A DNA stretch of 64,000 nucleotides from an uncultured bacterium (GCA_964429875.1 CAYSDL010000002.1:5270-69269); one strand, 5' to 3'; counted from the first letter of the stretch, positions 1-34,029 are shown. Notes: generated from the sequence alone by a model not told the origin. A program made the numbers and translations.

Positions 1-1
1 T

Positions 2-2671
2 GAAAACATAGATAGTTATCTATGTGGAATAGATAGTAGTAATGTTTATGTTGATTCAGAAATTGAACAAGAATGTATTAATAATAACTGTGGTACCTTT
101 GATAATCCTTTTAAAACTATTTCACGAGCAATGTCTATGATACTTCCAACTGAAGTAAATCCAATTACTATACATTTAATTGGATCTATATATTCGGATA
201 GCAACAATCAAGAAATATTTCCAATATGCATGATAGATCATACTAATATAATTGGAGAAAATAGAGACATAACTTTTTTAGATGCAAATTTACAAAATAG
301 AGTTATTTCATTTGATGATGTTATAAACAGTTCACTTTCAAATATTACTATACAAAATGGTATAACAGAAAGCTACTATGACGGTGCTGGAATATATTTA
401 AACTTATCTAATGTTATTTTTGACAGTGTTTCTTTACTAAACAATCATGCATCAGATGATGGTGGTGATATATGTTCTGATAATTCTAGCATAACCATTA
501 ATAATAGTTTAATTGAAAATAATATATCTGAAGATAATGGAGGAGGGATATGCGCTGTTAATTCAAATATTACTATAAGTAATACAACATTAAATAATAA
601 TATTGCAAGAGATGAAGGTGGTGGCATATGGTCTGGGATTATATCTGGGATAACATTGATTAATTCCAAAATAATAAATAATCAATCAAAATTAGGTGGT
701 GGTATATTTTTTTTCTATCCTGGTATTTTTTCATCAATTGGAAATTCAAATATCTATTTAAACAATTCAAATATCGGCAATGATCTTTATTCAATCAGTA
801 ATGATATTATATCCGTAGTAATAGACACGTTTACAGTTCAATATCCTTCTGAGTATCATGCATTCCCAATTAATAATTTTTCATTTGATATTAATGATGG
901 GATTTTACCTAATATTGGCATAGATAGCGATTCGGTATATGTTTCTGTACATGAAGGGTCTAATCTTAATGATGGATCTCAAAATTTTCCTTTAAAGAGT
1001 ATCCGTTATGCATTAGCAACTTTATACATAAATGAAAATAATCCAAAAGAAATAATTTTAGATGAAGGTATTTACAGTAATTCATTGACAAATGAGAACT
1101 ATCCAATTCCTGTTATTAATAATTTAACAATAAGTGGACAAGGGCCAATTCTTACAATTTTAGATGGTGAACAAAATTCACAAATTTTATCTATGTATGA
1201 ATCTCATAACTCTACGATAAAAGGATTATCTATTATAAATGGATATAGTGAAATAGGAGGAGGAATATATTGTAAAAATTCATATCCTGAATTTATAGAT
1301 TTGTCTGTTAGAAACAATACAGCATATTTTAGCGGTGGAGGTATATATTTAGATAATTCTACACCTGAATTTAGTGATGACAATCAATTCCTATGTAGTA
1401 TTTATAACAATGAGGCTCCATTAGGTAAAGATATTGTTTCATATGATACATTTATTGAGGCTACACTAGACACTTTCACTGTTATGTTTCCAACAAGTGT
1501 TTATGCGCATCCATTAGAAAACTTTAACATAGAACCACTCAACAATATTTTGGAGCAAATCCCAAACTATATATATATATCAACAAATGGTGACGATATA
1601 ATTGGTAATGGCAGTGAGTCTAACCCTTTTGCAAGCCTAACACATGCATTATCTGTCGCTATTTCTAATAATGAAGTTCCATTAACAATTTTTATAGATG
1701 AAGGTTATTATAATTACAATGAAGACTTTCCAATTAATCTAATTGATAATATTAGAATTAAAGGTTCTGGAGCAGAATTTACTATAATAGATGGGAATCG
1801 ACAATCAAGGATATTCAATATAAATAATATAAATAATGTTATCATCGAAGATATCTCAATTAAAGATGGAAAAGTTCAATCTTTATGTTCAGAAACTGAT
1901 CCATTCTATGCAACTGGTGGAGGTATTAGAATTGAAGAATCTTCTAATATCAAGATTGTAAATACTATTCTTTATAATAATTCTCTTGAAGGAGGATATT
2001 TTACAGAATGGCATGATACAGGGTATGAATCTACTTCATATTGTAATGCTCGTGGAGGCGCTATCTATATTAAAACATCAGATTTGGATATTATAAATTG
2101 TTCTTTGATTGACAATTCTATACAAAATAATATTTCTAGTTATGAAACTTATTTTGGTTCTGGTATATATATATCATCAGAATCTAATGTTAATATATAT
2201 AATTCTATTTTATGGGATAATCATATTTTCCTTCCTGAATGGCAAGGAAATGATAACTTGCTAACTAACAGTTCATCTGAAGTAAATGTTCTATTTTCTA
2301 ATATAGAAGAAGATGATTATTGGGGAACTATGTCATTAGATCCATTATTTGATACAAATCAAAATTTCCCTTATATCTTATCTTCTCTTTCTCCATGCAT
2401 TGATTCTGGAACAGCAGATTTTGATGGAGATGGCATTGATGATATAGTTAATTATTTGGGTTTAGCTCCTGACATGGGTGCAATTGAATCATTCCCTCCC
2501 ATTTCACTTGGAGATCTTAATCAAGATTATCAATTAAATATTTTCGATATAATTATTCTTGTTGAATATGCGTTAGATGGCGAATACGTTTCAATCGGCG
2601 ATCTCAATCAAGATGAAACTATAGACGTTTTAGACATTATAGCCCTTGTTTCACTCATTCTAGATAATTAA
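2..2671 (+). CDS. Secreted multi-module right-handed beta-helix protein (Pmp/PbH1-like GGxI repeats) with C-terminal dockerin-like module; 5'-partial, runs off the window start
   Basis: I read frame 2 codon by codon from nt 2 and found no stop before the ATG at 131 used by the ORF track. The upstream residues ...NVYVDSEIEQECINNNCGTFDNPFKTISRAM repeat a cap motif seen twice more (VYVSVHEGSNLNDGSQNFPLKSIRYALA; IYISTNGDDIIGNGSESNPFASLTHALS). There are nine GG[GA]I-type turns (DNGGGICA, DEGGGIWS, KLGGGIFF, EIGGGIYC, FSGGGIYL, ATGGGIRI, ARGGAIYI and others). The last 54 aa form a duplicated GDLNQD...LDII.LV module. Confidence 0.8.
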   Translation, partial: ENIDSYLCGIDSSNVYVDSEIEQECINNNCGTFDNPFKTISRAMSMILPTEVNPITIHLIGSIYSDSNNQEIFPICMIDHTNIIGENRDITFLDANLQNRVISFDDVINSSLSNITIQNGITESYYDGAGIYLNLSNVIFDSVSLLNNHASDDGGDICSDNSSITINNSLIENNISEDNGGGICAVNSNITISNTTLNNNIARDEGGGIWSGIISGITLINSKIINNQSKLGGGIFFFYPGIFSSIGNSNIYLNNSNIGNDLYSISNDIISVVIDTFTVQYPSEYHAFPINNFSFDINDGILPNIGIDSDSVYVSVHEGSNLNDGSQNFPLKSIRYALATLYINENNPKEIILDEGIYSNSLTNENYPIPVINNLTISGQGPILTILDGEQNSQILSMYESHNSTIKGLSIINGYSEIGGGIYCKNSYPEFIDLSVRNNTAYFSGGGIYLDNSTPEFSDDNQFLCSIYNNEAPLGKDIVSYDTFIEATLDTFTVMFPTSVYAHPLENFNIEPLNNILEQIPNYIYISTNGDDIIGNGSESNPFASLTHALSVAISNNEVPLTIFIDEGYYNYNEDFPINLIDNIRIKGSGAEFTIIDGNRQSRIFNINNINNVIIEDISIKDGKVQSLCSETDPFYATGGGIRIEESSNIKIVNTILYNNSLEGGYFTEWHDTGYESTSYCNARGGAIYIKTSDLDIINCSLIDNSIQNNISSYETYFGSGIYISSESNVNIYNSILWDNHIFLPEWQGNDNLLTNSSSEVNVLFSNIEEDDYWGTMSLDPLFDTNQNFPYILSSLSPCIDSGTADFDGDGIDDIVNYLGLAPDMGAIESFPPISLGDLNQDYQLNIFDIIILVEYALDGEYVSIGDLNQDETIDVLDIIALVSLILDN
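2507..2668 (+). other. Dockerin-like C-terminal module 1 (two Ca-loop plus helix segments)
   Basis: LGDLNQDYQLNIFDIIILVEYAL-DGEYVSI-GDLNQDETIDVLDIIALVSLILDN, followed directly by the stop codon. Confidence 0.7.
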
Positions 2672-2695
2672 ACATAATTAATTTATATCTAATAA

Positions 2696-3586
2696 ATGAA
2701 CCACCAATCAAATAAACCACTATTTCTTTCTACCTGGGAACATGGCTATAAAGCTAACATATGTGGAATAAATTTATTAAAAAATGATTTCTGTGCATTG
2801 GATTCTATTGAAGAGGCAGCTAAAATCACTGAATTAGATGAGAATGTCAGAACAGTAGGAGTTGGTGGTTATACAGATAATGCAGGAGATGTTACTCTAG
2901 ATGCTAGCATCATGGACCATAATGGTAACGCTGGATCAGTTGCCTTTGTTAAAAATATATCTCACCCTCTATCACTAGCTAGAACCGTCATGGAAAAGTC
3001 TAAACATGTTATGCTAGTAGGTGAGGGGGCTGAAATATTTGCTTCAGAAAATGGTTATAAATTTACCAATATAGCTACAGACAAATCATTAATTGATTAT
3101 GAAAAATGGAAAATCAACAAAAATACAGCTCCTGTAAATCAAGATAATCACGATACAATAACTCTTATAGCACTTGATAAAGAGGGTAGTATTGCTGCAG
3201 GAAGTACAACAAGTGGCCTTGCATATAAAAGCAAAGGCAGGGTAGGTGATAGTCCAATCATTGGTTCGGGTATTTATGTCGATGGCAATGTTGGTGCAGC
3301 TGGTGCAACTGGATTCGGGGAGGAAATTATGAAAAATGTTGGTAGTTTTCTTATTGTTGAGTTAATGTCTCAAGGATATTCCCCGAATGAAGCGTGCAGA
3401 GAAGCTGTAAATAGAACACTTAAAAAGCACAATTTTAAATTTAAAGAACAAATAGCTTATATTGCATTAAGGAATGATGGTGAATATGGGGCAGCTGCTG
3501 CAAATGATAAATTTTTCCTTAATGTATCAACTCCTTCAAAAACAAAAACTATTAAAATTTCCGGATGCATAACATCTGATGCTTAA
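2696..3586 (+). CDS. Glycosylasparaginase / isoaspartyl peptidase (Ntn-hydrolase, asparaginase-2 family)
   Basis: Family motifs NHDTITLIALD (D-T autoprocessing site), AAGSTTSGLAYKSKGRVGDSPIIGSGIYVD and GAAGATGFGEEIM. Confidence 0.85.
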   Translation: MNHQSNKPLFLSTWEHGYKANICGINLLKNDFCALDSIEEAAKITELDENVRTVGVGGYTDNAGDVTLDASIMDHNGNAGSVAFVKNISHPLSLARTVMEKSKHVMLVGEGAEIFASENGYKFTNIATDKSLIDYEKWKINKNTAPVNQDNHDTITLIALDKEGSIAAGSTTSGLAYKSKGRVGDSPIIGSGIYVDGNVGAAGATGFGEEIMKNVGSFLIVELMSQGYSPNEACREAVNRTLKKHNFKFKEQIAYIALRNDGEYGAAAANDKFFLNVSTPSKTKTIKISGCITSDA

Positions 3587-5402
3587 ATCAGGCAAATTAT
3601 CTACATTTCTATTACTTATCCCCTTTATTTTTACACCTTTTGTAATCTCTTCTGATTTAACAGATTCATCATTATTTCCAAAGCACATATTTATTATTAT
3701 TTCATTTTTTTTTATTTCTATTTACTTATCCTTAAGAAATAACTATTTATATGATAAAAATATTTTCATTTACATGATTATATTTTTTGGTTATTGTTTA
3801 TCAACTTCATATATACATTCATTTAATTTCAATAAATCGATTTGGGATATTGTTTTTCAATTATCATGGTTTTTTATTCTCATTACATTTATAAATATTC
3901 TTAATAAAGAATTAATTACATGTATTCTTATTTCAACTTCATTAGTGTCAGGCCTCTTATCGCTCATATGTATAAATGACTTATTAAATATTTTTAGTTT
4001 AGACATTCCATCAAAAGGATTGATGAGCGCAACGTTTGGATATAGAAATTATTTTTCGCAATATTTATGTTTTTCAATTCCTGCAGGACTTATATCAATC
4101 ATGATTATATCAAATAAAAAAGTTAGATATTTATTATTATTATGCACTTCATTGTCTTTAGTGTCACTTTTTTTAACAAGAACAAGAGCGGCATGGATCG
4201 CAATATTTGTGATCTTTATTATTTTTATATATATAAATAGAAATTTTTTATTTAATGCAATTAAAACAAATATTAAAAATAAATGCTCTATTTTGTTTAT
4301 ATCTGCGTTTATATTTGTTTTTTCGTTTATTCTTTCTATCCCAATTACAGGTTCTACAACATCAACAGACACAATGGATGTAAATAAAACTACAATATCT
4401 CAGACTCTTTCAACTTTATTTAACTTTGATAAGTCCTCATTCGGAGATCGATATAATATGTATAAATCAACAGGAAAAATGATAAATGATCATTTTTTAT
4501 TTGGTGTTGGTGTTGGAAATTGGTATATAAATTATCCATTCTACTCTAGAAATAACCAAACAGATATTGATGATAAAGTATGGAAATATGATAAAATCAT
4601 AAAAAGACCCCATAATGATTTTTTATTAATATTTTCTGAAATAGGCTCAGTAGGTCTATTACTTATTTTAATACCTATGCTATACTATCTTAGATATATT
4701 TTTAAGAGCTTAATTAACAAAGATGAATATTTCTATATAAATCAATTCTGCCTTTTAGCACTGATATGTATATTTATTGAATCAATGTTCGATTTTCCTA
4801 AAGAAAGAATTATGCCCAACTTATATTTTTTCTTTATCATCGCAATAATACATCAACAGATTTATAAATCAAAAATCAAAGAAACTAATTTTGTTTTACC
4901 ATTATTATCAACTTTTGTTTTCTTATCTTTTCTATTATTTAAAATTAATGATATTAACAATGATAAAGATTTTGCTGTTTTAAAACAGCTAAACAAAGAT
5001 AAAAGGTTCTCAGAATCAACTATCTTGGCAGAGAAAGTGCTAAAATTCAGAAATGTTGACTATTCTGGAACACCTATATATTATTATCTAGGTATTTCAG
5101 CTTATAATAATAAAGAATTAGATAAAGCTAATAATTATTTCAATAAAGGATTATCATTATTTCCATATCATTTAGGGCTCCTTGGCAATAGTCTTATTAT
5201 CAATGGAAAAACAGAAGATATTGATAAAGCGTACGATAAAATGCTCTTAATCAAATCATTATATCCAAAATTAATTAAACCCCAAATTGATATGGCAAAA
5301 ATTTATATCAACCAAAATAATATGAAAAAAGCAAGAAGAGTATTATTAGATATTAATTATGAAAATGATGAAATTCTTAGCCTTTTGTTATCAACAAAGT
5401 AG
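3579..5402 (+). CDS. O-antigen ligase / Wzy_C-domain polytopic membrane protein with C-terminal TPR region
   Basis: Many TM helices. TRTRAAWIAIFV and KRPHNDFLLIFSEIGSVGLLL resemble the Wzy_C/O-antigen ligase loop. The C-terminal ~130 aa are TPR-like (YYYLGISAYNNKELDKANNYFNKGLSLFP). The start overlaps the upstream stop by 8 nt. Confidence 0.75.
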   Translation: MLKSGKLSTFLLLIPFIFTPFVISSDLTDSSLFPKHIFIIISFFFISIYLSLRNNYLYDKNIFIYMIIFFGYCLSTSYIHSFNFNKSIWDIVFQLSWFFILITFINILNKELITCILISTSLVSGLLSLICINDLLNIFSLDIPSKGLMSATFGYRNYFSQYLCFSIPAGLISIMIISNKKVRYLLLLCTSLSLVSLFLTRTRAAWIAIFVIFIIFIYINRNFLFNAIKTNIKNKCSILFISAFIFVFSFILSIPITGSTTSTDTMDVNKTTISQTLSTLFNFDKSSFGDRYNMYKSTGKMINDHFLFGVGVGNWYINYPFYSRNNQTDIDDKVWKYDKIIKRPHNDFLLIFSEIGSVGLLLILIPMLYYLRYIFKSLINKDEYFYINQFCLLALICIFIESMFDFPKERIMPNLYFFFIIAIIHQQIYKSKIKETNFVLPLLSTFVFLSFLLFKINDINNDKDFAVLKQLNKDKRFSESTILAEKVLKFRNVDYSGTPIYYYLGISAYNNKELDKANNYFNKGLSLFPYHLGLLGNSLIINGKTEDIDKAYDKMLLIKSLYPKLIKPQIDMAKIYINQNNMKKARRVLLDINYENDEILSLLLSTK

Positions 5403-5505
5403 TCCAACGATATTCTTGTATATATTCCAATTTATAACTAAATTCTAAACATATATTTTTACTTATAAATTTTAAATATTTTCAATTTCTTTTAGAGGAG
5501 GAAAA

Positions 5506-6417
5506 ATGATTAATTTAATAAAAGCCTTTTTATTAATTTCAATTTCAATAAACATAAACTTATTTTCAGTTGAACTTAATGTTCCTGAGGATTACGATAA
5601 TATTCAAGCAGCTATAACTTATGCTAATAACGGAGATACCGTAAATGTTGCAACTGGTACATATACAGGTTATGGTAATGTGAATATTAATTTTTATGGT
5701 AAGTCTATCTATCTAAATGGAAATAATTCTACATTAGATGCAGATCATAATCATAGATTATTTTATTTTAATAGTGAAGAAGATACCACTACAGTAGTTG
5801 AAGGATTTACTATACGAGAGGGTGCTTCAGATATAACTGAAGATGGCGATGAATATATTTCAACATTTATGATTTCTGCTCACACAGGTGATCCTGAGTT
5901 ATTTTATTTATCTGACCCATCATCAGGGTATTCAATTGATAATATTGAACCTGAAACACCAGAAAATGTATTTGGTTCCTACAGTTTTATCAATGAAAAT
6001 GATGAGTATATAAGTGATGTTTTTATTAATTGGGATCCGCTTTTAAATACTCCTGATTTTGATTATATTGAAATCTATAATAATGATAATCTTTATGGTT
6101 ATACTATACAAACTGGATCTGCACATGTTTCAATAGAAGATTTTCCATATAGTTTTACTATAAAAGTATATGATTACAATGGAAATAGCTCAGATTTTTC
6201 TTTGCCTTATTTTTCTAATGAGACTTTAGGTGATTTAAATCAGGATCATACAATCAATGTTTCTGATGCAGTGATGATGGTTGATGCAATATTACTTATT
6301 TCTGAAACAGGCATTTTACCAAATGATTTTATATTCACGTTATCAGAGTTATATATAGACAATGAGGTCAATGTCATTGATCTTGTCGCATTAATTAATA
6401 TAATATTAGATATTTAA
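5506..6417 (+). CDS. Secreted protein: short beta-helix cap plus FN3-like region plus C-terminal dockerin-like module
   Basis: AGGAGG Shine-Dalgarno about 8 nt upstream. Signal peptide MINLIKAFLLISISININLFS. Beta-helix cap VPEDYDNIQAAITYANNGDTVNVATGTYTG. C-terminal GDLNQDHTINVSDAVMMVDAILL, then a degenerate second segment IDNEVNVIDLVALINIILDI. Confidence 0.75.
   Translation: MINLIKAFLLISISININLFSVELNVPEDYDNIQAAITYANNGDTVNVATGTYTGYGNVNINFYGKSIYLNGNNSTLDADHNHRLFYFNSEEDTTTVVEGFTIREGASDITEDGDEYISTFMISAHTGDPELFYLSDPSSGYSIDNIEPETPENVFGSYSFINENDEYISDVFINWDPLLNTPDFDYIEIYNNDNLYGYTIQTGSAHVSIEDFPYSFTIKVYDYNGNSSDFSLPYFSNETLGDLNQDHTINVSDAVMMVDAILLISETGILPNDFIFTLSELYIDNEVNVIDLVALINIILDI
6226..6414 (+). 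other. Dockerin-like C-terminal module 2 (second Ca-loop degenerate)
   Basis: LGDLNQDHTINVSDAVMMVDAILL-ISETGILPNDFIFTLSELY-IDNEVNVIDLVALINIILDI, then stop. Confidence 0.6.
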
Positions 6418-6442
6418 TATTTTTTATATTTCCCTTCTAATA

Positions 6443-7462: not shown

Positions 7463-7523
7463 GAATTACATAAATTTACATTATGATACTTTTATTATAT
7501 TCTCAAACATTATAATTTAAGAT

Positions 7524-9059
7524 ATGAATATATTTAAAAAATATTACTCAATCTTTTTTATCGTATCAACATTTGCATTTAGTGAACATATTTCTAAAGA
7601 ATATGCATCAGATATTGCAAACAGAGTAAACACTATCTATAATAAAGATAAGACACTAGAAAAATTAATGATTAAGAATATTGATACTATTTCAGAACAT
7701 AATATAGATCTTTTTTATATAGTCAATTTAGATCCTGTAGGTTTTATATTGATTTCTGCTGACAATAGAGCAATACCTTTACTTGGTTACAGCTTTGATA
7801 ATAATTTTAAAATTGACAATGCCCCAACAAACATCAATTGGTTAATAAATAAATTTAAAACTCAGATATCATCTATTATAAATTCAAATATACCAGCTAC
7901 TGAAAGTATTCATCAACAATGGAACAATCTTTTATCAGAAATTATAAGCCAAGAAACAAGAGATGTGTCGCCACTTCTTGATGCAGAGTTTGATCAATCA
8001 GGCGGATGGAATAATGCTGTAACACAGGCAATAGGATTTAATGGCCCCGTTGGATGTGTTGCTGTATCAATGGCTCAAATTATGCATTATTGGAGCTATC
8101 CATATACAGGTGAGGGCTCAAATTATTACGTAGAAGATGATTACGGTTATATTGAAGTTGATTTTAGCACTGCATATTATGATTACGATAATATGGCTGC
8201 TACTTGGGCAACAGCTCCATCACAGCTCCTCTTGTATCATGCAGGCGTATCAGTAAATATGGACTATGAAAATGGTGGATCTGGAGCATGGGTAGTAGGA
8301 TCTTATCCATCAGCACTTTACTCTATGGAAAACTTTTTTTCTTATAGCAATCAAGTATATACTGTATGGAAGGATAATTATTCAACAACAGACTTTAGAA
8401 ACATATTAAAAGAACAATTAGATAATGGAATGCCTGTTATATATAGTGGATATGATTCTAGTGATGGTGGTCATGCATGGAATATTGATGGCTATTCAGG
8501 AAATAATCTTCATTGCAATTGGGGTTGGGGTGGATGGAATAACGGATACTACAATCTAACATCAATGGGTGGTTTTTCTTATGATCAAGTAGCTCTGATA
8601 GGATTAATACCGCCTGCTTTAACTGATCCACCAGCATTGTTTGATTATGAAGTTATAGATGACACTGTTATCTTTATTGATATATCTCAAGAAATAAACG
8701 AATCTGAGCTAATTTCATGGCATTGGGTTTTCGACGATGGAACTTCAAGTACTACATCTTCAGGGTACACAGAACACACATACAGTCAGCCAGGTACATA
8801 CAATGTACAATTGTATGTAACAAATGAATATGGACAATCAGGACCTTCTCATTATGAGCAAATTATTATTGAAGGTGGTACTCTAGGGGATATCAATGAT
8901 GATTCTGTAGCAAACATTTTAGATATAGTTTTGATTGTAAATTTTATTATTGGTTCAGATACACCAACAACATCAGAGTTTTATAGTGCGGATATGAATG
9001 ATGATGGCATTTTAAATATTCTTGATGTTGTTATACTTGTAAATACAATACTGGACTAA
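7524..9059 (+). CDS. Secreted C10-family (streptopain/SpeB-like) cysteine peptidase with PKD domain and C-terminal dockerin-like module
   Basis: Signal peptide MNIFKKYYSIFFIVSTFAFS. Propeptide-like FYIVNLDPVGFILISADNRAIPLLGYSF. Catalytic Cys context GPVGCVAVSMAQIMHYW and His context DGGHAWNIDGY. PKD-like WHWVFDDGTSSTTSSGYTEHTYSQPGTYNVQLYVTNEYGQS. Dockerin-like tail. Confidence 0.85.
   Translation: MNIFKKYYSIFFIVSTFAFSEHISKEYASDIANRVNTIYNKDKTLEKLMIKNIDTISEHNIDLFYIVNLDPVGFILISADNRAIPLLGYSFDNNFKIDNAPTNINWLINKFKTQISSIINSNIPATESIHQQWNNLLSEIISQETRDVSPLLDAEFDQSGGWNNAVTQAIGFNGPVGCVAVSMAQIMHYWSYPYTGEGSNYYVEDDYGYIEVDFSTAYYDYDNMAATWATAPSQLLLYHAGVSVNMDYENGGSGAWVVGSYPSALYSMENFFSYSNQVYTVWKDNYSTTDFRNILKEQLDNGMPVIYSGYDSSDGGHAWNIDGYSGNNLHCNWGWGGWNNGYYNLTSMGGFSYDQVALIGLIPPALTDPPALFDYEVIDDTVIFIDISQEINESELISWHWVFDDGTSSTTSSGYTEHTYSQPGTYNVQLYVTNEYGQSGPSHYEQIIIEGGTLGDINDDSVANILDIVLIVNFIIGSDTPTTSEFYSADMNDDGILNILDVVILVNTILD
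8883..9056 (+). other. Dockerin-like C-terminal module 4
   Basis: LGDINDDSVANILDIVLIVNFII-GSDTPTTSEFYS-ADMNDDGILNILDVVILVNTILD, then stop. Confidence 0.7.
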
Positions 9060-9070
9060 CATATATTCAT

Positions 9071-9721
9071 ATGAAACCATTATTGTTTATACCCTGCTAT
9101 AATCATACAGAGGAAATAAACAACTTAATATATAATATCAAAAAATATTATAATGAGCATATTCTTATAATTGATGATGGTTCAACAGATGATATACAAT
9201 TAAATCACTCTGAACATATCAAATTAATGAAAAATAAATTTAATAAAGGTAAAGGTTATTCTATACTTAAAGCTTCTAAATATATGCTTACTCATAATTA
9301 TACGCATATGATTGTTATGGACTCAGATAGCCAACATGATCCCTCAAAGCTCAAAGAATTTTTATCTATTGATCCTTCGATTAATTTAGTATATGGAAGA
9401 CGCGTTTTTAAAAAACCAATGCCTATAAGTAGAATATTTTCAAATACATTCACATCAGCAATAATTAGTATATTATGCAACAAGCGTATTTACGATGCTC
9501 AATGTGGATATCGTAGATATGCAGATATTTTTTTTAAAGACTACGAATATAATGAATTAGGATATCAATTTGAATCTGAAATATTACTTAAATGCATTAA
9601 TTCAAAATCAAATATCGAATATGTCAATATTCCAACAATTTATAATGGAAATATAAGCTCTATGAATTATATCACTGATACATTAAAGTTTTTAAGATGT
9701 ATATTAAAAAATATATTTTAA
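9071..9721 (+). CDS. Family 2 glycosyltransferase (polyprenol-phosphate sugar transferase-like)
   Basis: LFIPCYNHTEEI...ILIIDDGSTDD...NKGKGYS...MDSDSQHDP...AQCGYR is the typical GT2 A-fold motif order (DxD = DSD). Confidence 0.8.
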   Translation: MKPLLFIPCYNHTEEINNLIYNIKKYYNEHILIIDDGSTDDIQLNHSEHIKLMKNKFNKGKGYSILKASKYMLTHNYTHMIVMDSDSQHDPSKLKEFLSIDPSINLVYGRRVFKKPMPISRIFSNTFTSAIISILCNKRIYDAQCGYRRYADIFFKDYEYNELGYQFESEILLKCINSKSNIEYVNIPTIYNGNISSMNYITDTLKFLRCILKNIF

Positions 9722-9722
9722 A

Positions 9723-10205
9723 ATGAGGGAGTATTTCATAAACATACTAAGTATAATTGACAGTGAACATATAAAAATTTTCATATTATCAATGGCCCCA
9801 ATTACAGAATTACGTTTTTCAATTCCTTATGGTATATTGATTAAAGATATGAATCCAACTGAAGTTGTACTATTATCAATAATTGGAAATATTCTTATAG
9901 GATTAATCATTGTATATATAATCGGACCAATAATGAAATTTCTTCAAAATTTTTCAATATTTAATAATATTATAAATTATATTTTTAAAAGAACATTAAA
10001 AAAAGGAAAGATAGTAGATAGGATAAAATTTTGGGGACTCGTAATATTTGTAGGAATACCTTTTCCATTAACAGGTGTTTGGACAGGCTCTTTAGCTGCT
10101 TATCTATTTGGAATTCCTATTAAAACAACTACTTTTGCTATTGTAATTGGTGTATTAATAAGCACAACTATAGTAACTCTCCTAACTATTATCCCAACCC
10201 TATAA
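9723..10205 (+). CDS. Small membrane protein, COG2426 / putative small multidrug-export family
   Basis: Four predicted TM segments. APITELRFSIPYGI and GIPFPLTGVWTGSLAAYLFG resemble the PF06695 signature as I remember it. The start is 1 nt after the GT2 stop. Confidence 0.55.
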   Translation: MREYFINILSIIDSEHIKIFILSMAPITELRFSIPYGILIKDMNPTEVVLLSIIGNILIGLIIVYIIGPIMKFLQNFSIFNNIINYIFKRTLKKGKIVDRIKFWGLVIFVGIPFPLTGVWTGSLAAYLFGIPIKTTTFAIVIGVLISTTIVTLLTIIPTL

Positions 10206-10260
10206 AAATTTTATTTTTAAAAAAATATTAGTATATAATAATTAATAACTGTAATTTTTT

Positions 10261-10291
10261 GTGGTTTACAATGTAAACACATTTTACATTG
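10261..10291 (+). promoter_or_regulatory. csp leader element: overlapping inverted repeats giving two mutually exclusive hairpins
   Basis: 10264-10270 gtttaca / 10272-10278 tgtaaac is a perfect palindrome around 10271. Alternatively 10269-10277 caatgtaaa pairs with 10283-10291 tttacattg (9 bp, 5-nt loop). The SD aaggag is at 10308-10313 and the ATG at 10318. Confidence 0.35.
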
Positions 10292-10317
10292 AGTTTTAGT
10301 AATAACAAGGAGCAAGA

Positions 10318-10527
10318 ATGAGCGACAAGCTAAAAGGTACTGTCAAATGGTTCGATGCTAGAAAAGGATACGGCTTTATAGAAAAAGAAGACGGAACAGA
10401 TATATTCTGTCATTTTTCTGTAGTTAATATCGATGGATATAAAACATTAAAAGATGGACAAGCTGTAGAATTTGAAGTTGAATCAAATGATAAAGGTGAA
10501 AGAGCTACTAACGTTACCCCTCTTTAA
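10318..10527 (+). CDS. Cold-shock protein (CspA family, CSD)
   Basis: [28 protein letters not shown] carries the RNP1/RNP2 motifs. 69 aa. Strong SD aaggag. Confidence 0.95.
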
Positions 10528-10642
10528 TTTTTAATCAAAATACATATAATTCTTAGAATTAATCGATTATGTTCATATCGATATTGGAATTTTATTATAT
10601 AATAATTATTTACTATTTTACTTAATAAAATATAATGTTATT

Positions 10643-11080
10643 ATGTTGAATAAAGATAAATCAGAAAAAAAATTAAGCAAGTTACAAACAGATGTAATTA
10701 AAAATTGCGGCACAGAACCACCATTTAATAATGAATATTGGGATAATAAAAAGGAAGGTATTTATGTTGATGTTATTAATGGTGAGCCCTTATTTTGCTC
10801 TATACATAAATTTGATTCAGGAACAGGATGGCCTTCATTTTATGATGTAATTGACCATAACAATATAACAAAGCATAATGATTTTAAATTAGGATATCAA
10901 CGTACAGAAGTTAAATCTACAAAATCAAACTCTCACTTAGGACATGTTTTTGATGATGGCCCAAATAACAAACCAAGATATTGTATTAATTCCGCATCAT
11001 TAAAATTTATAGCAAAAGAGGATCTGCATAAAGAAGGTTATGAACATCTGGAACATTTATTCAATAAAGATAACAAATAA
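10643..11080 (+). CDS. msrB: Peptide-methionine (R)-S-oxide reductase MsrB (zinc-less form)
   Basis: [21 protein letters not shown] and [11 protein letters not shown]. The usual CxxC zinc motifs are absent (DVIN in place of the first CxxC). Confidence 0.9.
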
Positions 11081-12441
11081 TGTATTATAGCATATTTGAA
11101 TTATTTAAAATAGGCGTTGGCCCTTCAAGTTCACATACTGTTGGACCTATAAATGCTGCAAATTTGTTTTTAAATAGTATCTTGAAATCTGAACACATTA
11201 ACAACATAAAAAAAATAAATGTGGAATTAATGGGATCTTTAGCATACACAGCACATGGACACAAAACCATTGATGGTATATTAATTGGACTAACAGGAAC
11301 TTCTCCGGAGAGTGTAGATAAGAGGTCTTTTGAAAAAATTAAAAATATTAAAGATAATAAAAAAATACAGTTGACTAAAGAATGTATAATAACATTTAAA
11401 CCAGATGTAGATATAATTTTAAACAAAAATATTAATAAACGTGATAAATACAACAATGTTATGGTATTTAAATGTTTCTATTCACATAATGATGAACCAT
11501 ATGAAAAAACATATTATTCAATTGGCGGTGGATTTATTGTTGAGAAAGGCATTAAAGAAAAAAGAAAATCAATTACTTTTCCTTACAATTTTAATTCATC
11601 TAATGAACTTTTAAAGTTATGCAAGGACAATGATCTAAATATTTATGATATTATCATATCAAATGAGTTAGCATTAAATAAAAATATTAATAATTTAAAT
11701 TCAAAGGTGTTAAATCTCTGGGATGTAATGAATGATACAATAAAATCTGGCATATCCAAAACTGGAACTATTGATAAGATACTAAACGTAGAAAGACGGG
11801 CTAATAAACTTTACAATAAATTAAAAAGAAAAAATTACTATGATCCTTTAGAAGTCTTAGATTGGGTAAATATATTTGCGATATCTACATGTGAAGAAAA
11901 TGCCTCAGGATCAAAAATTGTTACAGCGCCAACAAATGGAGCGGCTGGAATTATCCCTGCAGTATTAAAATATTATAAAAAATTTACAAATGATTCAAAT
12001 GACGAAGGAATCATAAGATTCCTAGCAACATCAGCAGCTATAGGCATACTTTTCAAAAACAATTCTAGTATATCTGGAGCTGAAGTTGGATGTCAAGGAG
12101 AGGTAGGCGTTGCATGTTCTATGGCAGCAGCAGGTCTTACGGCTGCTCTTGGTGGTACTTCAATGCAGATAGAAAATGCTGCTGAAATTGGGATGGAACA
12201 CAATTTAGGTCTTACATGCGACCCAATAAAAGGCCTTGTTCAAATACCATGTATTGAAAGAAATTCTATGGGTGCAATTAAAGCAATTAATGCTTCAAGA
12301 CTTGCTCTAAGTGGAAGCGGTGAACATAAAGTAACATTAGATCAAGTTATTAAAACTATGAATGAAACTGGAAAATCAATGAACAGCATATATAAGGAAA
12401 CAGCTTTAGGTGGACTAGCTGTAAATGTAATTGAATGTTGA
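11080..12441 (+). CDS. sdaA: L-serine ammonia-lyase (iron-sulfur type, single-chain)
   Basis: [15 protein letters not shown] at the N-terminus. [32 protein letters not shown] and [19 protein letters not shown]. Confidence 0.92.
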
Positions 12442-15065
12442 ACATCAAAAATGAATTAATAATTCTATCAGTAGTATCAATAGTTATAATCTTTATTTCA
12501 ATTAATTTTAATGATAATGAAAGAAAATCATACGAAAATTTTCTATTAAATAAATATAAAGATATACCAAGTTATAGCAAAGAAGAATTAAAGAATATCC
12601 CTAAACCCGAACATCCAGATTTAGCCTCTTATCAAAATTATTTTATGACTTTAGATCCTGCGCTTGGAATTGTCCCATTAGAAAGATTAAAAGAAGCATT
12701 TAACTATACCATTTCATTAAATCCCGACAATAGATCTATAAGCTGGACAAACACTATGTCAAACATGGGAGGCAGAACAAGATGTTTAAAGTATGATCCC
12801 AGTGATTCTGATAGAAAGAAAGTATGGGCAGGTGGTGTTACTGGTGGACTATGGTATAACAATGACATTACAGATGAAACATCATTATGGAACAATGTTG
12901 ATGACCTTTGGGACAACCTAGTTGTGAGCAGTATAGCATTCGATCCTAATAATCCAGATATAATATATGTTGGTACAGGTGAAGCTAATACAGCCATTAT
13001 CACCTATCGTGAAAGTTCTGGAAGAGGCATAGGATTATGGAAAAGTGTTGATGGAGGGATAAATTGGACATTACTAGAATCAACATCAAATTTTGCTTAT
13101 ATAACAGATATTGAAATAAATAACAATTCTGATGTTTATATAGGTGTTGTCTCTGGTACATATTATGGAGTACATGAAAGTTTGCCAAGCGATGGATTGT
13201 ATAAATCAAACAATGGTGGAATCACATGGGAACAGGTATTACCTAATATCCCAAATGATAATACTCCTTACGCAGTTTCTGATATTGAAATTACATCTGA
13301 CAGCAAAATTTTTATTGGCACAATGAAAAATATTAATGGAAATGGTGGTTCATTTATTCTACATAGTGAATCCGGTGATATTGGAACCTGGGTTACTTAC
13401 AGCGATATTAACAACATTATACTTAATCAAGAAGAATTTAATATCCCGGGTAGAGTCGTTGTAACATCATCAATAACTAACCCAAACATATTATATGCTG
13501 TATTTGGATCTGGATATGTAAATAATTATGGATTTAATTATTCTTATGGAAACCATATAATTAAATCAGAAAACGCTGGTCAATCATGGACATTAACTAA
13601 CATACCTAACAATTACGACAATCATACTTGGGCTACTCTTGCATGGCATGCCTTGACTATCGAAATTGATCCCATTGATGAAAACACCCTATATGTAGGC
13701 GGTTTAGACTTACATAAATCAACTAATAGTGGCAATTCATGGACAAAGCTCTCAAATTGGGCCCTTATGTATGAGGGTGGAGGGGATCAATATGTTCATG
13801 CCGATATTCATTCAATAACCTTTAGAAATAATAGCTCAAATGAATTTACTGTCACATCAGATGGAGGTATATTTCATACAATAAATGCTTCTTCAGAAAA
13901 TATAATCTTTTCTGAACATAATAATGGCTACAATACTTTACAATATTACACAGGCGCTATATATCCAGAATCTAATAATAATATTTTTATTGGTGGACTC
14001 CAGGATAATGGAACATTGTTATATTCCGATCAGAATATATATGAATTTCCTGGTGGCGCATTAACAACTAATAATATGATAAGTGGGGGAGATGGAGCAT
14101 ATTGCTTTTGGGATAAAAATGAACCAGAAATATTACTTACATCAACTTATTATAATAGATATTATTTATTTATTAATGGTGTTTATACAAACTATTTCAA
14201 TGGAAATAATGGAATCTTTATCAATCCTGCAGATTATGATTTTAATACAAATAAATTATATGCTAATGCTGTTAGATTTGATGGAACTGCTCAAAATCGA
14301 CTTTTTGTTATTTCAAATGTAGATTCAAACCCTACAGAAGGAAATATAAATCTTTCTACCAATACTGGAGTCCCTTTTTCACATATAAAATATTCGCATC
14401 ATTCAGAAGATGATGCTACACTATTTGTAAGCTCACAATCTGGATATCTTTATAAGGTAGAATTTGATGATGATGATTTTATTGTAAATAATATTACAGG
14501 CAATGATTTTCCAAATGGAAATATTTCTTCTATATCTATTGGAGGTTCTGAAGATACTCTTCTTGTAACATTTTCTAATTATGGCACACCTTCATTATGG
14601 TTAACAACTAATGGTGGAGACGCCTGGGAAAATAAAGATGGGAATTTACCTGATATGCCCATAAGATCTTCATTGTTTCATCCTCAATCTTCTTTAAATG
14701 CATTAATTGCAACAGAAATCGGAGTATGGGGGACATCAAACATCCTTAATGAAAATGTATCTTGGTCACCGTATTCAAATGGTCTTGCAAATGTAAGAGT
14801 AGATATGTTAAATATTCGAAGTTCTGATAATATGGTTTTAGCATCAACTCATGGAAGAGGTCAGTTTTATGGTATCTATGAAGCAGTTCAAGATATATAT
14901 CTTGGTGATATAAACTATGATAATGAACTAAATGTTTTAGATGTTGTTTTGCTCGTTAATATGATCTTAGATGATTCATTTAATATAAGTGGCGATTTAA
15001 ATAGTGATATGCTAAATAATGTGCTAGATGTAGTTTTACTTGTAAATTTAATATTGAATAATTAA
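12435..15065 (+). CDS. Secreted BNR/Asp-box beta-propeller protein (sortilin/VPS10- or GH74-like) with C-terminal dockerin-like module
   Basis: N-terminal signal anchor LIILSVVSIVIIFISI. Five Asp-box motifs (KSVDGGINWT, KSNNGGITWE, KSENAGQSWT, KSTNSGNSWT, TTNGGDAWE). Dockerin-like tail. Confidence 0.8.
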   Translation: MLNIKNELIILSVVSIVIIFISINFNDNERKSYENFLLNKYKDIPSYSKEELKNIPKPEHPDLASYQNYFMTLDPALGIVPLERLKEAFNYTISLNPDNRSISWTNTMSNMGGRTRCLKYDPSDSDRKKVWAGGVTGGLWYNNDITDETSLWNNVDDLWDNLVVSSIAFDPNNPDIIYVGTGEANTAIITYRESSGRGIGLWKSVDGGINWTLLESTSNFAYITDIEINNNSDVYIGVVSGTYYGVHESLPSDGLYKSNNGGITWEQVLPNIPNDNTPYAVSDIEITSDSKIFIGTMKNINGNGGSFILHSESGDIGTWVTYSDINNIILNQEEFNIPGRVVVTSSITNPNILYAVFGSGYVNNYGFNYSYGNHIIKSENAGQSWTLTNIPNNYDNHTWATLAWHALTIEIDPIDENTLYVGGLDLHKSTNSGNSWTKLSNWALMYEGGGDQYVHADIHSITFRNNSSNEFTVTSDGGIFHTINASSENIIFSEHNNGYNTLQYYTGAIYPESNNNIFIGGLQDNGTLLYSDQNIYEFPGGALTTNNMISGGDGAYCFWDKNEPEILLTSTYYNRYYLFINGVYTNYFNGNNGIFINPADYDFNTNKLYANAVRFDGTAQNRLFVISNVDSNPTEGNINLSTNTGVPFSHIKYSHHSEDDATLFVSSQSGYLYKVEFDDDDFIVNNITGNDFPNGNISSISIGGSEDTLLVTFSNYGTPSLWLTTNGGDAWENKDGNLPDMPIRSSLFHPQSSLNALIATEIGVWGTSNILNENVSWSPYSNGLANVRVDMLNIRSSDNMVLASTHGRGQFYGIYEAVQDIYLGDINYDNELNVLDVVLLVNMILDDSFNISGDLNSDMLNNVLDVVLLVNLILNN
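14901..15062 (+). other. Dockerin-like C-terminal module 5
   Basis: LGDINYDNELNVLDVVLLVNMIL-DDSFNIS-GDLNSDMLNNVLDVVLLVNLILNN, then stop. Confidence 0.7.
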
Positions 15066-15074
15066 TATAATATT

Positions 15075-15416
15075 ATGTCAACAATATTTAATAAAATTAT
15101 AAATAAAGAAATTAATGCTAATATTTTATATGAAGATGATATTTGCATAGCATTTTACGACATATCGCCACAGGCACCAATTCATTTTCTTATAATCCCT
15201 AAAAAAGAAATTAAAACTATAAATAATATTAAAAATGAAGATAAAGATATGATTGGACATTTATTTATTATAGCTAAGGATTTAGCTAGAAAATTAAACA
15301 TTAATGAAGATGGTTATAGAATTGTATTTAATTGCAATGAAAATGCTGGACAAACTGTATTTCACATACATATGCATGTATTAGGGGGGAGGAAATTATT
15401 ATGGCCTCCAGGATAA
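15075..15416 (+). CDS. HIT-family (histidine triad) nucleotide-binding protein
   Basis: The histidine triad HIHMHVLGG lies near the C-terminus, with APIHFLIIPKK upstream. 113 aa. Confidence 0.9.
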   Translation: MSTIFNKIINKEINANILYEDDICIAFYDISPQAPIHFLIIPKKEIKTINNIKNEDKDMIGHLFIIAKDLARKLNINEDGYRIVFNCNENAGQTVFHIHMHVLGGRKLLWPPG

Positions 15417-17710: not shown

Positions 17711-17712
17711 TT

Positions 17713-18372: not shown

Positions 18373-18495
18373 ATGAATTTTAAACAACTAAGAGATAATA
18401 GTTGGAAGTATACTGCAAATTATAAAAAACTTTTTATCAATATTTGCATATTAATAGTTATAATCATATTAATTAATTATATAGGGAAGATATGA
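18373..18495 (+). CDS. Unlisted 40-aa single-pass membrane peptide ORF, stop overlapping the ftcD start (ATGA)
   Basis: Hand translation gives MNFKQLRDNSWKYTANYKKLFINICILIVIIILINYIGKI. It begins 1 nt after the M50 gene stop. Its TGA (18493-18495) overlaps the ATG (18492-18494) of the next gene. It is below the ORF-track size cutoff. Confidence 0.35.
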   Translation: MNFKQLRDNSWKYTANYKKLFINICILIVIIILINYIGKI

Positions 18496-21863: not shown

Positions 21864-21901
21864 CCTTTATATTAAATTAGAATATACAAATAGGTTAAAT
21901 A

Positions 21902-24675: not shown

Positions 24676-24683
24676 TACAAATA

Positions 24684-25175: not shown

Positions 25176-25179
25176 TTTT

Positions 25180-26163: not shown

Positions 26164-26183
26164 TTATTTAATTAAATTATTGT

Positions 26184-26459: not shown

Positions 26460-26463
26460 AGCT

Positions 26464-33970: not shown

Positions 33971-34029
33971 TATTTATAATATTAAATTAAAATTAATTAA
34001 ATTATTTCCATAATAAAATTAAGTATTTT

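What the first reader, a model, noticed from the sequence alone, without database searches (positions are those of the whole stretch)
2..15065. Six unrelated secreted proteins share one terminal dockerin-like tag: a candidate non-cellulolytic cohesin-dockerin display system or new C-terminal sorting system
Seen directly: the last 53-63 residues of ORFs 2..2671, 5506..6417, 6443..7462, 7524..9059, 12435..15065 and 34325..35344 are the same module.
- Segment 1 is [LI]GD[LIA]N.D...N[IV].D[IV][IV]..[VI]. followed by a helix.
- A 7-20 aa linker follows.
- Segment 2 is [GSA]D[LMI]N.D...N[IV].D[IV][IV].L[VI]N.I[LI].
- The stop codon follows within 0-3 residues.
A duplicated Ca-loop plus helix is the architecture of type I dockerins (established for clostridial cellulosomes; non-cellulosomal dockerins are known to be widespread). 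The cargo domains have nothing in common and none looks like a cellulosomal glycoside hydrolase. They are a three-module beta-helix, a beta-helix/FN3-like protein, a plant-type LRR, a C10 protease with PKD, an Asp-box propeller and a DUF1028 Ntn-hydrolase. Five of the six lie within 15 kb, interleaved with a Wzy_C-TPR membrane protein, a glycosylasparaginase and a GT2. No cohesin-like scaffold is recognisable in this window. My inference is that the lineage assembles or anchors a protein-binding and proteolytic exoproteome through this tag. Alternatively, because the tag is always strictly terminal, it may have been co-opted as a sorting signal analogous to T9SS-CTD or PEP-CTERM.
Basis: partly seen in the sequence, partly recalled or inferred. 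Interest (0 to 1): 0.8.

Follow-up and report, generated by a model that had tools for sequence, protein, structure and literature searches.

The report
Dockerin tags on Marinimicrobia secreted proteins
Six unrelated secreted proteins of an uncultured low-GC marine bacterium (SAR406/Marinimicrobia) end in genuine dockerin modules, most likely protein-docking plugs rather than a new sorting signal; this use of dockerins outside cellulose degradation is already known, but relatives point to an unannotated cohesin-like partner module.

Summary
Six + strand ORFs end in the same duplicated Ca-loop-plus-helix module. A profile of the six finds only those six in a six-frame search of the window (E 1e-21 to 1e-23; next best 0.5).

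The module is a type I dockerin. PF00404 is the best Pfam hit for all six, and three pass the gathering score. The predicted fold matches C. thermocellum dockerin (TM 0.89, rmsd 1.0 A).

The window is syntenic (11 genes, 50-67 % identity) with a Candidatus Neomarinimicrobiota MAG, whose orthologue of ORF E keeps the tag.

The "new C-terminal sorting signal" reading is not supported:
- Relatives carry the same dockerin at the N-terminus.
- Others carry it internally, upstream of a genuine T9SS sorting domain.

The window holds no cohesin. In relatives I found a ~105-aa "GFQF" module with no Pfam or NCBIfam model:
- Its closest single-domain structural matches are cohesins.
- It is repeated up to 13 times in giant proteins that end in T9SS sorting domains.
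- It is sometimes fused or adjacent to dockerins.

It is a candidate partner, and nothing shows binding.

Non-cellulosomal dockerins are known, including C10 protease fusions. A scaffold with a T9SS sorting domain was proposed in Cloacimonadota. Verdict: new member of a known kind, moderate interest.

The parts
2..2671 (+). ORF A (5' end outside the window): repeated beta-helix/PMP-like modules with a terminal dockerin
   Evidence: weak Beta_helix and Chlam_PMP. (POMP_repeat).
2504..2668 (+). Dockerin tag of A (55 aa)
   Evidence: PF00404 21.8 bits, best hit, just under the gathering score of 22.9. Tag HMM E 3.1e-23.
5506..6417 (+). ORF B: signal peptide, NosD-like beta-helix start and a terminal dockerin
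6223..6414 (+). Dockerin tag of B (64 aa; second Ca loop degenerate, longest linker)
   Evidence: PF00404 24.7 bits, first segment only. Tag HMM E 8.7e-22. Degenerate loop seen.
6443..7462 (+). ORF C: plant-type LRR protein with a terminal dockerin. The reading frame opens at 6410 with a hydrophobic signal-like stretch.
   Evidence: LRR_1, LRR_8 and LRR_14. N-terminus read.
7298..7459 (+). Dockerin tag of C (54 aa)
   Evidence: PF00404 14.1 bits, the only hit, below the gathering score. Tag HMM E 1.2e-21.
7524..9059 (+). ORF D: signal peptide + Spi inhibitor + Peptidase_C10 + PKD + terminal dockerin
   Evidence: 147.3, 46.7 and 46.6 bits.
8880..9056 (+). Dockerin tag of D (59 aa); this is the tag that was modelled
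   Evidence: PF00404 37.4 bits. AF2 best model pLDDT 94.9. Foldseek 2ccl_B TM 0.89, rmsd 1.0 A.
12435..15065 (+). ORF E: N-terminal membrane anchor or signal, Asp-box/BNR propeller-like body and a terminal dockerin. It is conserved with its tag in the Neomarinimicrobiota MAG.
   Evidence: The orthologue L002 6854..9529 is 53 % identical over 883 aa and keeps the dockerin.
14898..15062 (+). Dockerin tag of E (55 aa)
   Evidence: PF00404 13.7 bits, best hit, below the gathering score. Tag HMM E 4.6e-21.
34325..35344 (+). ORF F: signal peptide + DUF1028 (Ntn-hydrolase-like) + terminal dockerin
   Evidence: DUF1028 119.6 bits.
35165..35341 (+). Dockerin tag of F (59 aa)
   Evidence: PF00404 32.4 bits. 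Tag HMM E 1.2e-23.
9723..21863 (+). Conserved backbone block: Sm_multidrug_ex, MsrB, SdaA, E, HIT, GpmA, Trx-like, XerD, M50, the 555-aa gene at 18492..20159 and MutL. It identifies the lineage and shows that E plus its tag is ancestral.
   Evidence: Collinear with L002 (Candidatus Neomarinimicrobiota MAG SP328): 11 genes at 50-67 % aa identity.

Best explanation
The six ORFs end in genuine type I dockerin modules: two EF-hand-like Ca2+ loops, each followed by a helix. The window comes from a low-GC (28.5 %) marine member of Marinimicrobia (SAR406 / Marinisomatota).

Most likely the dockerin is a non-covalent protein-docking plug. The proposed sequence of events is:
1. Each cargo protein is exported by its own Sec signal peptide. 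The cargo comprises a C10 protease, an LRR binder, a BNR propeller, a DUF1028 hydrolase and beta-helix proteins.
2. The Ca2+-folded dockerin binds a cohesin-type beta-sandwich module on a scaffold protein.
3. The scaffold is anchored at the cell surface, so a proteolytic and adhesive exoproteome stays on the cell instead of diffusing into sea water.

The best candidate receptor is a ~105-aa 'GFQF' module found in relatives. It looks like a shortened, divergent cohesin. It is tandemly repeated in giant proteins that carry a T9SS C-terminal sorting domain.

Shown: dockerin identity and fold, lineage, conservation of the tag in an orthologue, non-terminal positions in relatives, and the existence and architecture of the GFQF family.

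Inferred: binding between dockerin and GFQF (or any cohesin), surface location, and presence of the partner in this genome.
For: Dockerin identity:
- PF00404 is the best hit for 6/6 tags, and 3 pass the gathering score.
- The loops have the D1-N3-D5-N9-D12 pattern.
- The AF2 model (pLDDT 94.9) has dockerins as its top 36 PDB matches. The best is 2ccl_B with TM 0.89 and rmsd 1.0 A.

Lineage and conservation:
- The window is collinear over 11 genes with a Neomarinimicrobiota MAG contig.
- The E orthologue there keeps the tag.

Module behaviour, not signal behaviour:
- The dockerin is N-terminal in L002 1545..2567, fused to Exo_endo_phos.
- It is internal and upstream of Por_Secre_tail in an L001 protein and in P0205.

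Candidate partner (GFQF module):
- L002 751..1542 encodes two GFQF modules and lies 3 nt upstream of a dockerin gene.
- In L083 a dockerin gene overlaps the start of a GFQF gene.
- The best single-domain PDB matches of the AF2 model are cohesins 2xdh, 6kge_A and 5n5p_A (prob 0.99-1.0, TM 0.44-0.47).
- One module region of a GFQF giant ORF passes Pfam Cohesin (26.2 bits against a gathering score of 24.1).
- hhalign of the GFQF profile against that region gives 85 % probability, E 6e-6.
- There are 2,772 clusters, with up to 13-14 modules per protein.
- Por_Secre_tail/TIGR04183 sits at the C-terminus of L097, L102, P0142 and P0205.
- P0160 and P0247 combine 3-4 GFQF modules with a terminal dockerin, like adaptor scaffoldins.
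- An L001 protein fetched through its neighbouring dockerin gene carries GFQF, dockerin and a T9SS sorting domain together.

Precedent:
- Cloacimonadota Ca. Stygibacter has C-terminal dockerins on peptidases and GHs, plus a cohesin scaffoldin with a T9SS sorting domain (PMC8542988).
- A C10 peptidase-dockerin fusion was reported from rumen metagenomes (PMC6487960).
Against: - The window has no cohesin or GFQF module. The rest of this genome could not be searched.
- The GFQF-cohesin link is weak at the sequence level. Only 2 of 63 modules hit PF00963 at E <= 1. The profile against PDB sequences gives E 0.84. TM-scores are below 0.5, and CBM2 domains also match.
- GFQF loci are not enriched in window-type dockerins: 12 domains in 478 kb, against 6 in 64 kb in the window. 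Adjacency and fusion could therefore reflect the high background density of dockerin genes.
- The cargo proteins have no T9SS sorting domain, so their route across the outer membrane is unexplained.
- Only one of the five AF2 models of the tag was confident.
Confidence: 0.55

Rival explanations
1. Orphan dockerin. The module is a Ca2+-stabilised terminal domain that binds something other than a cohesin (own envelope glycan, polysaccharide or particle surfaces), or that only stabilises the protein. No dedicated scaffold exists in this organism.
For: - The window has no cohesin or GFQF.
- GFQF loci are not enriched in dockerins.
- Non-cellulosomal dockerins have been interpreted as adhesins in other phyla (PMC10066038).
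- Tagged genes sit among envelope-glycan genes: Wzy_C, GT2 and a polysaccharide deacetylase.
Against: - The two loop-helix segments keep the internal symmetry typical of cohesin-binding type I dockerins. The fold superposes on cohesin-bound dockerins.
- GFQF/cohesin-like modules do occur in the same lineage and contigs, and in the same polypeptides as this dockerin subtype.
Confidence: 0.27
2. The tag is a C-terminal sorting or secretion signal in its own right. It would be recognised by an export or attachment machinery and possibly removed, as with the T9SS sorting domain or PEP-CTERM.
For: - The tag is strictly terminal in all six window proteins, and in 117 of the 120 best database hits. 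That sample is biased by a terminal query and by gene fragments.
- The cargo lacks any other recognisable outer-membrane export signal.
Against: - The tag is N-terminal in L002 1545..2567.
- It is internal and followed by a genuine Por_Secre_tail in an L001 protein and in P0205.
- No PF18962, TIGR04183 or other curated sorting model matches the tags.
- The fold is helical, with no transmembrane helix plus basic tail.
Confidence: 0.06
3. Piggy-back export. The dockerin binds a scaffold that bears a T9SS sorting domain already in the periplasm, and the cargo crosses the outer membrane together with it. The tag would then be both a docking module and an indirect secretion tag.
For: - GFQF scaffolds carry T9SS type A sorting domains while the dockerin cargo does not.
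- The cargo has only Sec signals.
- From general knowledge, not tested here: T9SS exports folded proteins.
Against: There is no direct evidence. No T9SS component or scaffold is in the window, and other routes such as T2SS are not excluded.
Confidence: 0.1

Closest known systems
Type I dockerin-cohesin pair of clostridial cellulosomes (e.g. C. thermocellum Xyn10B dockerin, PDB 2CCL/1OHZ)
   Same: - Same Pfam family (PF00404).
- Same duplicated Ca-loop + helix segments, with D1/N3/D5/N9/D12.
- Same predicted fold (TM 0.85-0.89).
- Mostly C-terminal on Sec-exported proteins.
   Different: - The host is a diderm marine Marinimicrobia, not a Gram-positive cellulolytic clostridium.
- The cargo is protease, LRR, propeller and hydrolase, with no glycoside hydrolase.
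- No canonical PF00963 scaffoldin was seen.
- Positions 10/11 of each segment are hydrophobic (I/V-L), not the Ser-Thr recalled for C. thermocellum dockerins (my own knowledge, not tested here).
Proposed cellulosome-like complex of Ca. Stygibacter (Cloacimonadota), Williams et al. 2021, PMC8542988
   Same: - The phylum is related, by my own knowledge (FCB group).
- Signal-peptide enzymes, including peptidases, carry C-terminal dockerins.
- The scaffold has tandem cohesin modules and a T9SS C-terminal domain for surface attachment.
- The role is non-cellulolytic (proteins and other polymers).
   Different: - There the cohesins are recognised by InterPro and sit with CBM2/CBM3 modules in one 3,755-aa scaffoldin.
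- Here the candidate receptor is a shorter module invisible to Pfam and NCBIfam. It is found only in relatives, not in the window.
Non-cellulosomal dockerins (Peer et al. 2009, cited in PMC8542988 and PMC6487960) and rumen dockerin proteins of non-carbohydrate function (Bensoussan et al. 2016, PMC6487960)
   Same: - Dockerins sit on proteases and other non-CAZyme proteins.
[quoted passage not shown]
- The partner is often unknown.
   Different: - The density here is high: 6 tagged genes in 64 kb, about one gene in nine.
- The lineage is a globally abundant uncultured marine clade. The held literature never mentions dockerins together with it.
T9SS type A C-terminal sorting domain (Por_Secre_tail, PF18962/TIGR04183)
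   Same: A short C-terminal module shared by unrelated secreted proteins of FCB-group bacteria.
   Different: - No HMM match in the six proteins.
- Helical Ca-binding fold, where sorting domains are beta-sandwiches by my own knowledge.
- In relatives the dockerin occurs N-terminally, or upstream of a real sorting domain in the same protein.

Membership tests
Type I dockerin (Pfam PF00404 Dockerin_1) | Significant match to the family HMM at the curated gathering score | tested here: met
   Tags scanned alone scored 37.4 (D), 32.4 (F) and 24.7 (B) bits, above the gathering score of 22.9. A scored 21.8, C 14.1 and E 13.7 bits, below it, but PF00404 is the best hit for all six. All six are mutually homologous at E <= 1e-21.
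Type I dockerin (Pfam PF00404 Dockerin_1) | Two ~22-residue segments, each an EF-hand-like Ca2+ loop (D1, N/D3, D5, N/D9, D12) followed by a helix | tested here: met
   11 of 12 segments carry the full loop. B segment 2 is degenerate (E-L-Y-I-D...N..D).
Type I dockerin (Pfam PF00404 Dockerin_1) | Three-helix dockerin fold | tested here: met
   The AF2 model of the D tag has helices 13-24, 31-37 and 47-58 and pLDDT 94.9. The other four models scored only 50-61. The Foldseek top 36 PDB hits are all dockerins; 2ccl_B has TM 0.89 and rmsd 1.0 A.
Type I dockerin (Pfam PF00404 Dockerin_1) | Ca2+-dependent folding and binding to a cohesin | not testable with these tools
   Needs ITC or pull-down with and without EDTA, or at least multimer structure prediction.
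Cohesin-dockerin assembly system (cellulosome-like) | A cohesin-bearing scaffold protein encoded in the same genome | tested here: inconclusive
   None in the 64-kb window. The rest of the genome is unavailable. The syntenic relative L002 encodes a 2-module GFQF protein next to a dockerin gene.
Cohesin-dockerin assembly system (cellulosome-like) | The receptor module is a cohesin (PF00963, 9-stranded jelly roll) | tested here: inconclusive
   - The best single-domain PDB matches of the GFQF model are cohesins (prob 0.99-1.0), but TM is only 0.44-0.47 and CBM2 domains also match.
- Only 2 of 63 modules hit PF00963.
- One module region in L114 passes the gathering score (26.2 bits).
- hhalign GFQF against that region gives 85 % probability.
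- The profile against PDB sequences gives E 0.84.
Cohesin-dockerin assembly system (cellulosome-like) | Scaffold with tandem receptor modules and a cell-surface anchor | tested here: met
   Met in related marine contigs, not in the window. ORFs carry up to 8 modules and proteins up to 13-14. Por_Secre_tail/TIGR04183 ends L097, L102, P0142 and P0205.
Cohesin-dockerin assembly system (cellulosome-like) | Cargo dominated by plant-cell-wall glycoside hydrolases (a cellulosome proper) | tested here: not met
   The cargo is a C10 protease, LRR, DUF1028, beta-helix and BNR-like proteins, with no GH domain. The system would therefore be non-cellulosomal.
C-terminal sorting signals (T9SS sorting domains, PEP-CTERM/LPXTG-type) | Match to a curated sorting-domain model, or a transmembrane helix plus basic tail | tested here: not met
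   The six proteins have no PF18962, TIGR04183 or other sorting model. The tag ends in a 12-residue amphipathic helix and an acidic or neutral residue.
C-terminal sorting signals (T9SS sorting domains, PEP-CTERM/LPXTG-type) | Obligatory C-terminal position in all homologues | tested here: not met
   N-terminal in L002 1545..2567. Internal and upstream of Por_Secre_tail in L001 16312..19236 and in P0205.

The most novel reading that the evidence does not exclude
The GFQF module is a large, so far unannotated family of shortened cohesins. It would be the missing receptor for the 'orphan' dockerins of marine FCB-group bacteria. Dockerin-tagged cargo without its own T9SS signal would dock on scaffolds bearing a T9SS sorting domain in the periplasm and ride with them to the cell surface. 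SAR406 cells would then wear a modular protease and adhesin coat, and the dockerin would double as an indirect secretion tag.
Probability: 0.1. Interest if true: 0.8.

Novelty: new member of a known kind. Interest (0 to 1): 0.42.

Why it matters
Marinimicrobia (SAR406) are, by general knowledge, abundant and almost uncultured ocean heterotrophs, and how they process organic matter is poorly known.

About one gene in nine in this window carries a dockerin. If the tags tether proteases, binders and hydrolases to a surface scaffold, the cell could keep its extracellular enzymes and their products close in a dilute ocean. That would be a 'selfish' strategy.

Most non-cellulosomal dockerins have no known ligand. 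The GFQF module gives a concrete, cheaply testable candidate receptor and an HMM to search with.

As it stands, the finding extends known biology to a new phylum. It does not reveal a new kind of system.

Tried and rejected
- **Exact-sequence look-up of ORF D.** Not on record, so the source genome is not in that collection.
- **Rfam and tRNA scans of the window.** Nothing found.
- **Literature.** No paper in the library holds 'dockerin' together with SAR406, Marinimicrobia or Marinisomatota. Peer et al. 2009 (PMC3035643) is not held.
- **GFQF protein against PDB sequences.** No significant hit.
- **GFQF against Pfam and NCBIfam.** No family.
- **Metagenome scan with the broad GFQF alignment A3.** It was repeated with the narrower A4.
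- **Enrichment of dockerin genes near GFQF genes.** Not demonstrated. Only 8 of 84 loci hold a dockerin, about 1 per 40 kb, which is lower than in the window. I therefore do not use adjacency as statistical evidence.
- **Search with the Pfam-positive cohesin region of L114, to build a deeper cohesin profile.** It gave only 2 relatives, so the hhalign test rests on a shallow alignment.
- **Recent duplication or gene conversion of the tags.** Rejected, because DNA identity is only 53-62 %.
- **Chance or low-complexity artefact.** Rejected.
- **T9SS sorting-domain identity of the tag.** Rejected.
Full report
**1. The observation**

ORF A is open at the window's 5' end. Their last 54-64 residues align as one module:
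- a loop G-D-x-N-x-D-x3-N-x2-D followed by a hydrophobic helix;
- a linker of variable length;
- a second loop and helix;
- the stop codon 0-2 residues later.

ORF B is the one exception to the stated pattern. Its second loop is degenerate (SELYIDNEVNVID).

This is not chance. A regular expression for the loop finds 11 copies in the six-frame translation, all at these six ORF ends. A profile built from the six tags finds exactly these six at E 1e-21 to 1e-23, and the next best hit in the window has E 0.5. The tags are only 53-62 % identical in DNA and 31-48 % in protein. They are old, diverged copies held in shape by selection, not a recent duplication.

**2. What the module is**

PF00404 (Dockerin_1) is the best Pfam hit for each of the six tags scanned alone.

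| Tag | Bits | Against the gathering score of 22.9 |
|---|---|---|
| D | 37.4 | above |
| F | 32.4 | above |
| B | 24.7 | above |
| A | 21.8 | below |
| C | 14.1 | below |
| E | 13.7 | below |

The Ca-ligand positions D1, N3, D5, N9 and D12 match the positions I recall for C. thermocellum dockerins. An AlphaFold2 model of the D tag has three helices and pLDDT 94.9. The other four models were poor (50-61), which is a caveat. The tag is a type I dockerin.

**3. Cargo and neighbours**

| ORF | Cargo |
|---|---|
| A | weak beta-helix/PMP repeats |
| B | weak NosD-like beta-helix |
| C | LRR |
| D | Spi inhibitor + Peptidase_C10 + PKD |
| E | no Pfam hit; its orthologue shows weak Sortilin-Vps10/BNR signals |
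| F | DUF1028 |

B, D and F have clear signal peptides, and E has an N-terminal membrane anchor or signal. No glycoside hydrolase is present. None of the 26 ORFs scanned with Pfam contains a cohesin.

**4. Whose genome**

The window has 28.5 % G+C. A scan of one genome per GTDB species with the serine dehydratase at 11080..12441 gave a Candidatus Neomarinimicrobiota MAG (isolate SP328, locus L002) as the best match. All other matches were distant.

L002 is collinear with window 9.7-21.9 kb over 11 genes at 50-67 % amino-acid identity. The window is therefore from the Marinimicrobia / SAR406 / Marinisomatota lineage. A tag-profile search of 5.8 billion proteins returned 1,056 hits. The 120 listed are all short sequences, mostly from ENA, with some from JGI, NCBI and Tara Oceans marine sets, and 107 of them are annotated PF00404.

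**5. Is the tag conserved, and is it always terminal?**

The orthologue of E in L002 (6854..9529, 53 % identity over 883 aa) keeps a terminal dockerin. The tag is therefore conserved in an orthologue.

The tag is not bound to the C-terminus in relatives:
- L002 1545..2567 encodes signal peptide, then dockerin, then an Exo_endo_phos domain. PF00404 scores 31.8 bits at residues 24-68.
- L001 is a 934-kb lagoon contig with 30 % G+C in the stretch read. It encodes a protein with LTD, a dockerin at residues 746-802 and a genuine Por_Secre_tail behind it.
- P0205 has the same order of dockerin and T9SS domain.

A module that works at either end, and that sits in front of a real T9SS sorting domain, is not itself a C-terminal sorting signal. 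No curated Pfam or NCBIfam sorting-domain model matches the six proteins either.

**6. A candidate partner**

Three nucleotides upstream of the dockerin-phosphatase gene, L002 751..1542 encodes a 263-aa secreted protein. It is made of two ~105-aa repeats (32 % identical) with the motif ..YNS..DIGGFQFN..ASGGDA..GF..VLGFSFTG..IPAGCGTL. The module has no Pfam, NCBIfam or PDB sequence match.

*Fold.* Its AlphaFold model is confident within the modules (pLDDT mostly 77-98 there; whole-protein mean 77.5). The best single-domain PDB matches are cohesins: the non-cellulosomal A. fulgidus cohesin 2xdh, 6kge_A and 5n5p_A (probability 0.99-1.0, TM 0.44-0.47). CBM2 domains come next.

*Size of the family.* An exhaustive profile search finds 2,772 clusters with E <= 1e-3. 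Proteins of up to 4,996 aa carry up to 13-14 modules.

*Architecture.* Eighty marine metagenome loci show ORFs with up to 8 modules. Several of these giant proteins start with a signal peptide and end in a T9SS type A sorting domain: L097, L102, P0142 and P0205.

*Link to cohesin.* One module region of the L114 giant ORF passes Pfam Cohesin, at 26.2 bits against a gathering score of 24.1. It aligns with the GFQF profile at 14-21 bits. hhalign gives 85 % probability and E 6e-6.

*Link to dockerin.* P0160 (4 modules) and P0247 (3 modules) end in PF00404 dockerins of the window's subtype, which is the architecture of adaptor scaffoldins. P0160 is seen on four marine contigs. The L001 protein mentioned above, reached through its neighbouring dockerin gene, also contains a GFQF module (E 8.5e-25). 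In L083 a dockerin gene overlaps the start of a GFQF gene.

**7. Limits of that lead**

- The window has no GFQF module, and I could not search the rest of its genome.
- Only 2 of 63 modules hit PF00963 at E <= 1.
- The profile against PDB sequences gives E 0.84 for a cohesin.
- TM-scores are below 0.5.
- GFQF loci are not enriched in window-type dockerins: 12 domains in 478 kb, against 6 in 64 kb in the window. Because dockerin genes are so dense in this lineage, adjacency and fusion are suggestive only.
- Binding is untested.

**8. Mechanism proposed**

Each cargo is exported by Sec. Its Ca2+-folded dockerin plugs into a cohesin-type module of a surface scaffold. This holds a protease, binders and hydrolases at the cell surface. 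I put this at about 0.55, with GFQF as the receptor at about 0.4.

Rivals:
- an orphan dockerin with a non-cohesin ligand or a purely stabilising role (0.27);
- piggy-back export on scaffolds that bear a T9SS sorting domain (0.10);
- an autonomous sorting signal (0.06).

It is unexplained how cargo without a T9SS domain crosses the outer membrane.

**9. Comparison with what is known**

- Non-cellulosomal dockerins in many lineages were catalogued by Peer et al. 2009 (cited; the paper itself is not held).
- Rumen metagenomes hold dockerins on non-carbohydrate enzymes. About a fifth of those functions are in protein catabolism, and a C10 peptidase-dockerin fusion is listed (PMC6487960).
- Williams et al. 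2021 proposed a complex for the Cloacimonadota genus Ca. Stygibacter. It has C-terminal dockerins on peptidases and GHs, plus a 3,755-aa tandem-cohesin scaffoldin attached through a conserved C-terminal domain (PMC8542988).
- The present case is the same kind of system in another phylum. No paper in the library mentions dockerins together with that phylum. The likely difference is that the receptor is a shortened cohesin-like module that current domain libraries miss.

**10. Verdict**

- The dockerin identity is confirmed.
- The display-system reading is plausible and now has a concrete candidate partner.
- The sorting-signal reading is not supported.
- Novelty: new member of a known kind. The GFQF module could raise this to a new variant if binding is shown.
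- Interest is moderate (0.42).

Noticed in passing
window 6410..6445 (start of ORF C): From its TTG start at 6443, ORF C (LRR + dockerin) has no signal peptide. The reading frame already opens at 6410 and reads IFNIFYISLLILLSSIFP|CDYGY, a hydrophobic signal-like stretch. The only possible start codons there are ATA (6410) and ATT (6419), and the stretch overlaps the stop of ORF B. This could be a non-canonical start or translational coupling.
   Followed up: partly
L002 751..1542 and L087-L166: A ~105-aa 'GFQF' module (DIGGFQFN...VLGFSFTG..IPAGCGTL) has no Pfam or NCBIfam model. It forms 2,772 clusters in public data and repeats up to 13-14 times in giant marine proteins that end in T9SS sorting domains. 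Its closest single-domain structural matches are cohesins.
   Followed up: yes
L001 16312..19236 (- strand): A single 974-aa protein combines signal peptide, LTD, Cys-rich 'C.G.CGG' linker repeats, one GFQF module, a dockerin and a Por_Secre_tail. Similar Cys-rich linkers separate GFQF modules in other loci.
   Followed up: partly
L114 56..7255: A 2,400-aa multi-GFQF ORF also contains a plastocyanin/azurin-like Copper-bind domain (PF00127, 47 bits). It also holds the only module region that passes Pfam Cohesin. A Copper-bind protein that ends in a T9SS sorting domain is also encoded in L001.
   Followed up: no
P0001, P0005 (marine metagenome fragments): These dockerins have three loop-helix segments instead of two.
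   Followed up: no
window 35165..35341 (tag of F): The tag aligns weakly (16.7 bits, E 0.004) with the last 56 positions of NCBIfam NF045500 'Omp28-related selenoprotein'. That family may also end in a dockerin-like tail.
   Followed up: no
window 1..9720 versus L002 1..4170: Upstream of the conserved Sm_multidrug_ex-MsrB-SdaA block the two genomes differ completely. Both fill the variable region with dockerin-related genes. The window has A-D plus Wzy_C, GT2 and asparaginase. L002 has a 2xGFQF protein, a dockerin-phosphatase and two small genes with no Pfam hit.
   Followed up: partly
window 41118..44018 (- strand): A 966-aa protein has an N-terminal adenylate/guanylate cyclase catalytic domain and a long TPR array.
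   Followed up: no
window 1..64000: No tRNA gene and no Rfam family at gathering score in 64 kb. G+C is 28.5 %.
   Followed up: no
L082 (contig davie_1__contig_43134_pilon): A long-read metagenome contig in which housekeeping genes (SecA, acyl-CoA dehydrogenase, tRNA synthetase) and a probable giant GFQF gene are broken into many short ORFs. These are probably uncorrected frameshift errors.
   Followed up: no
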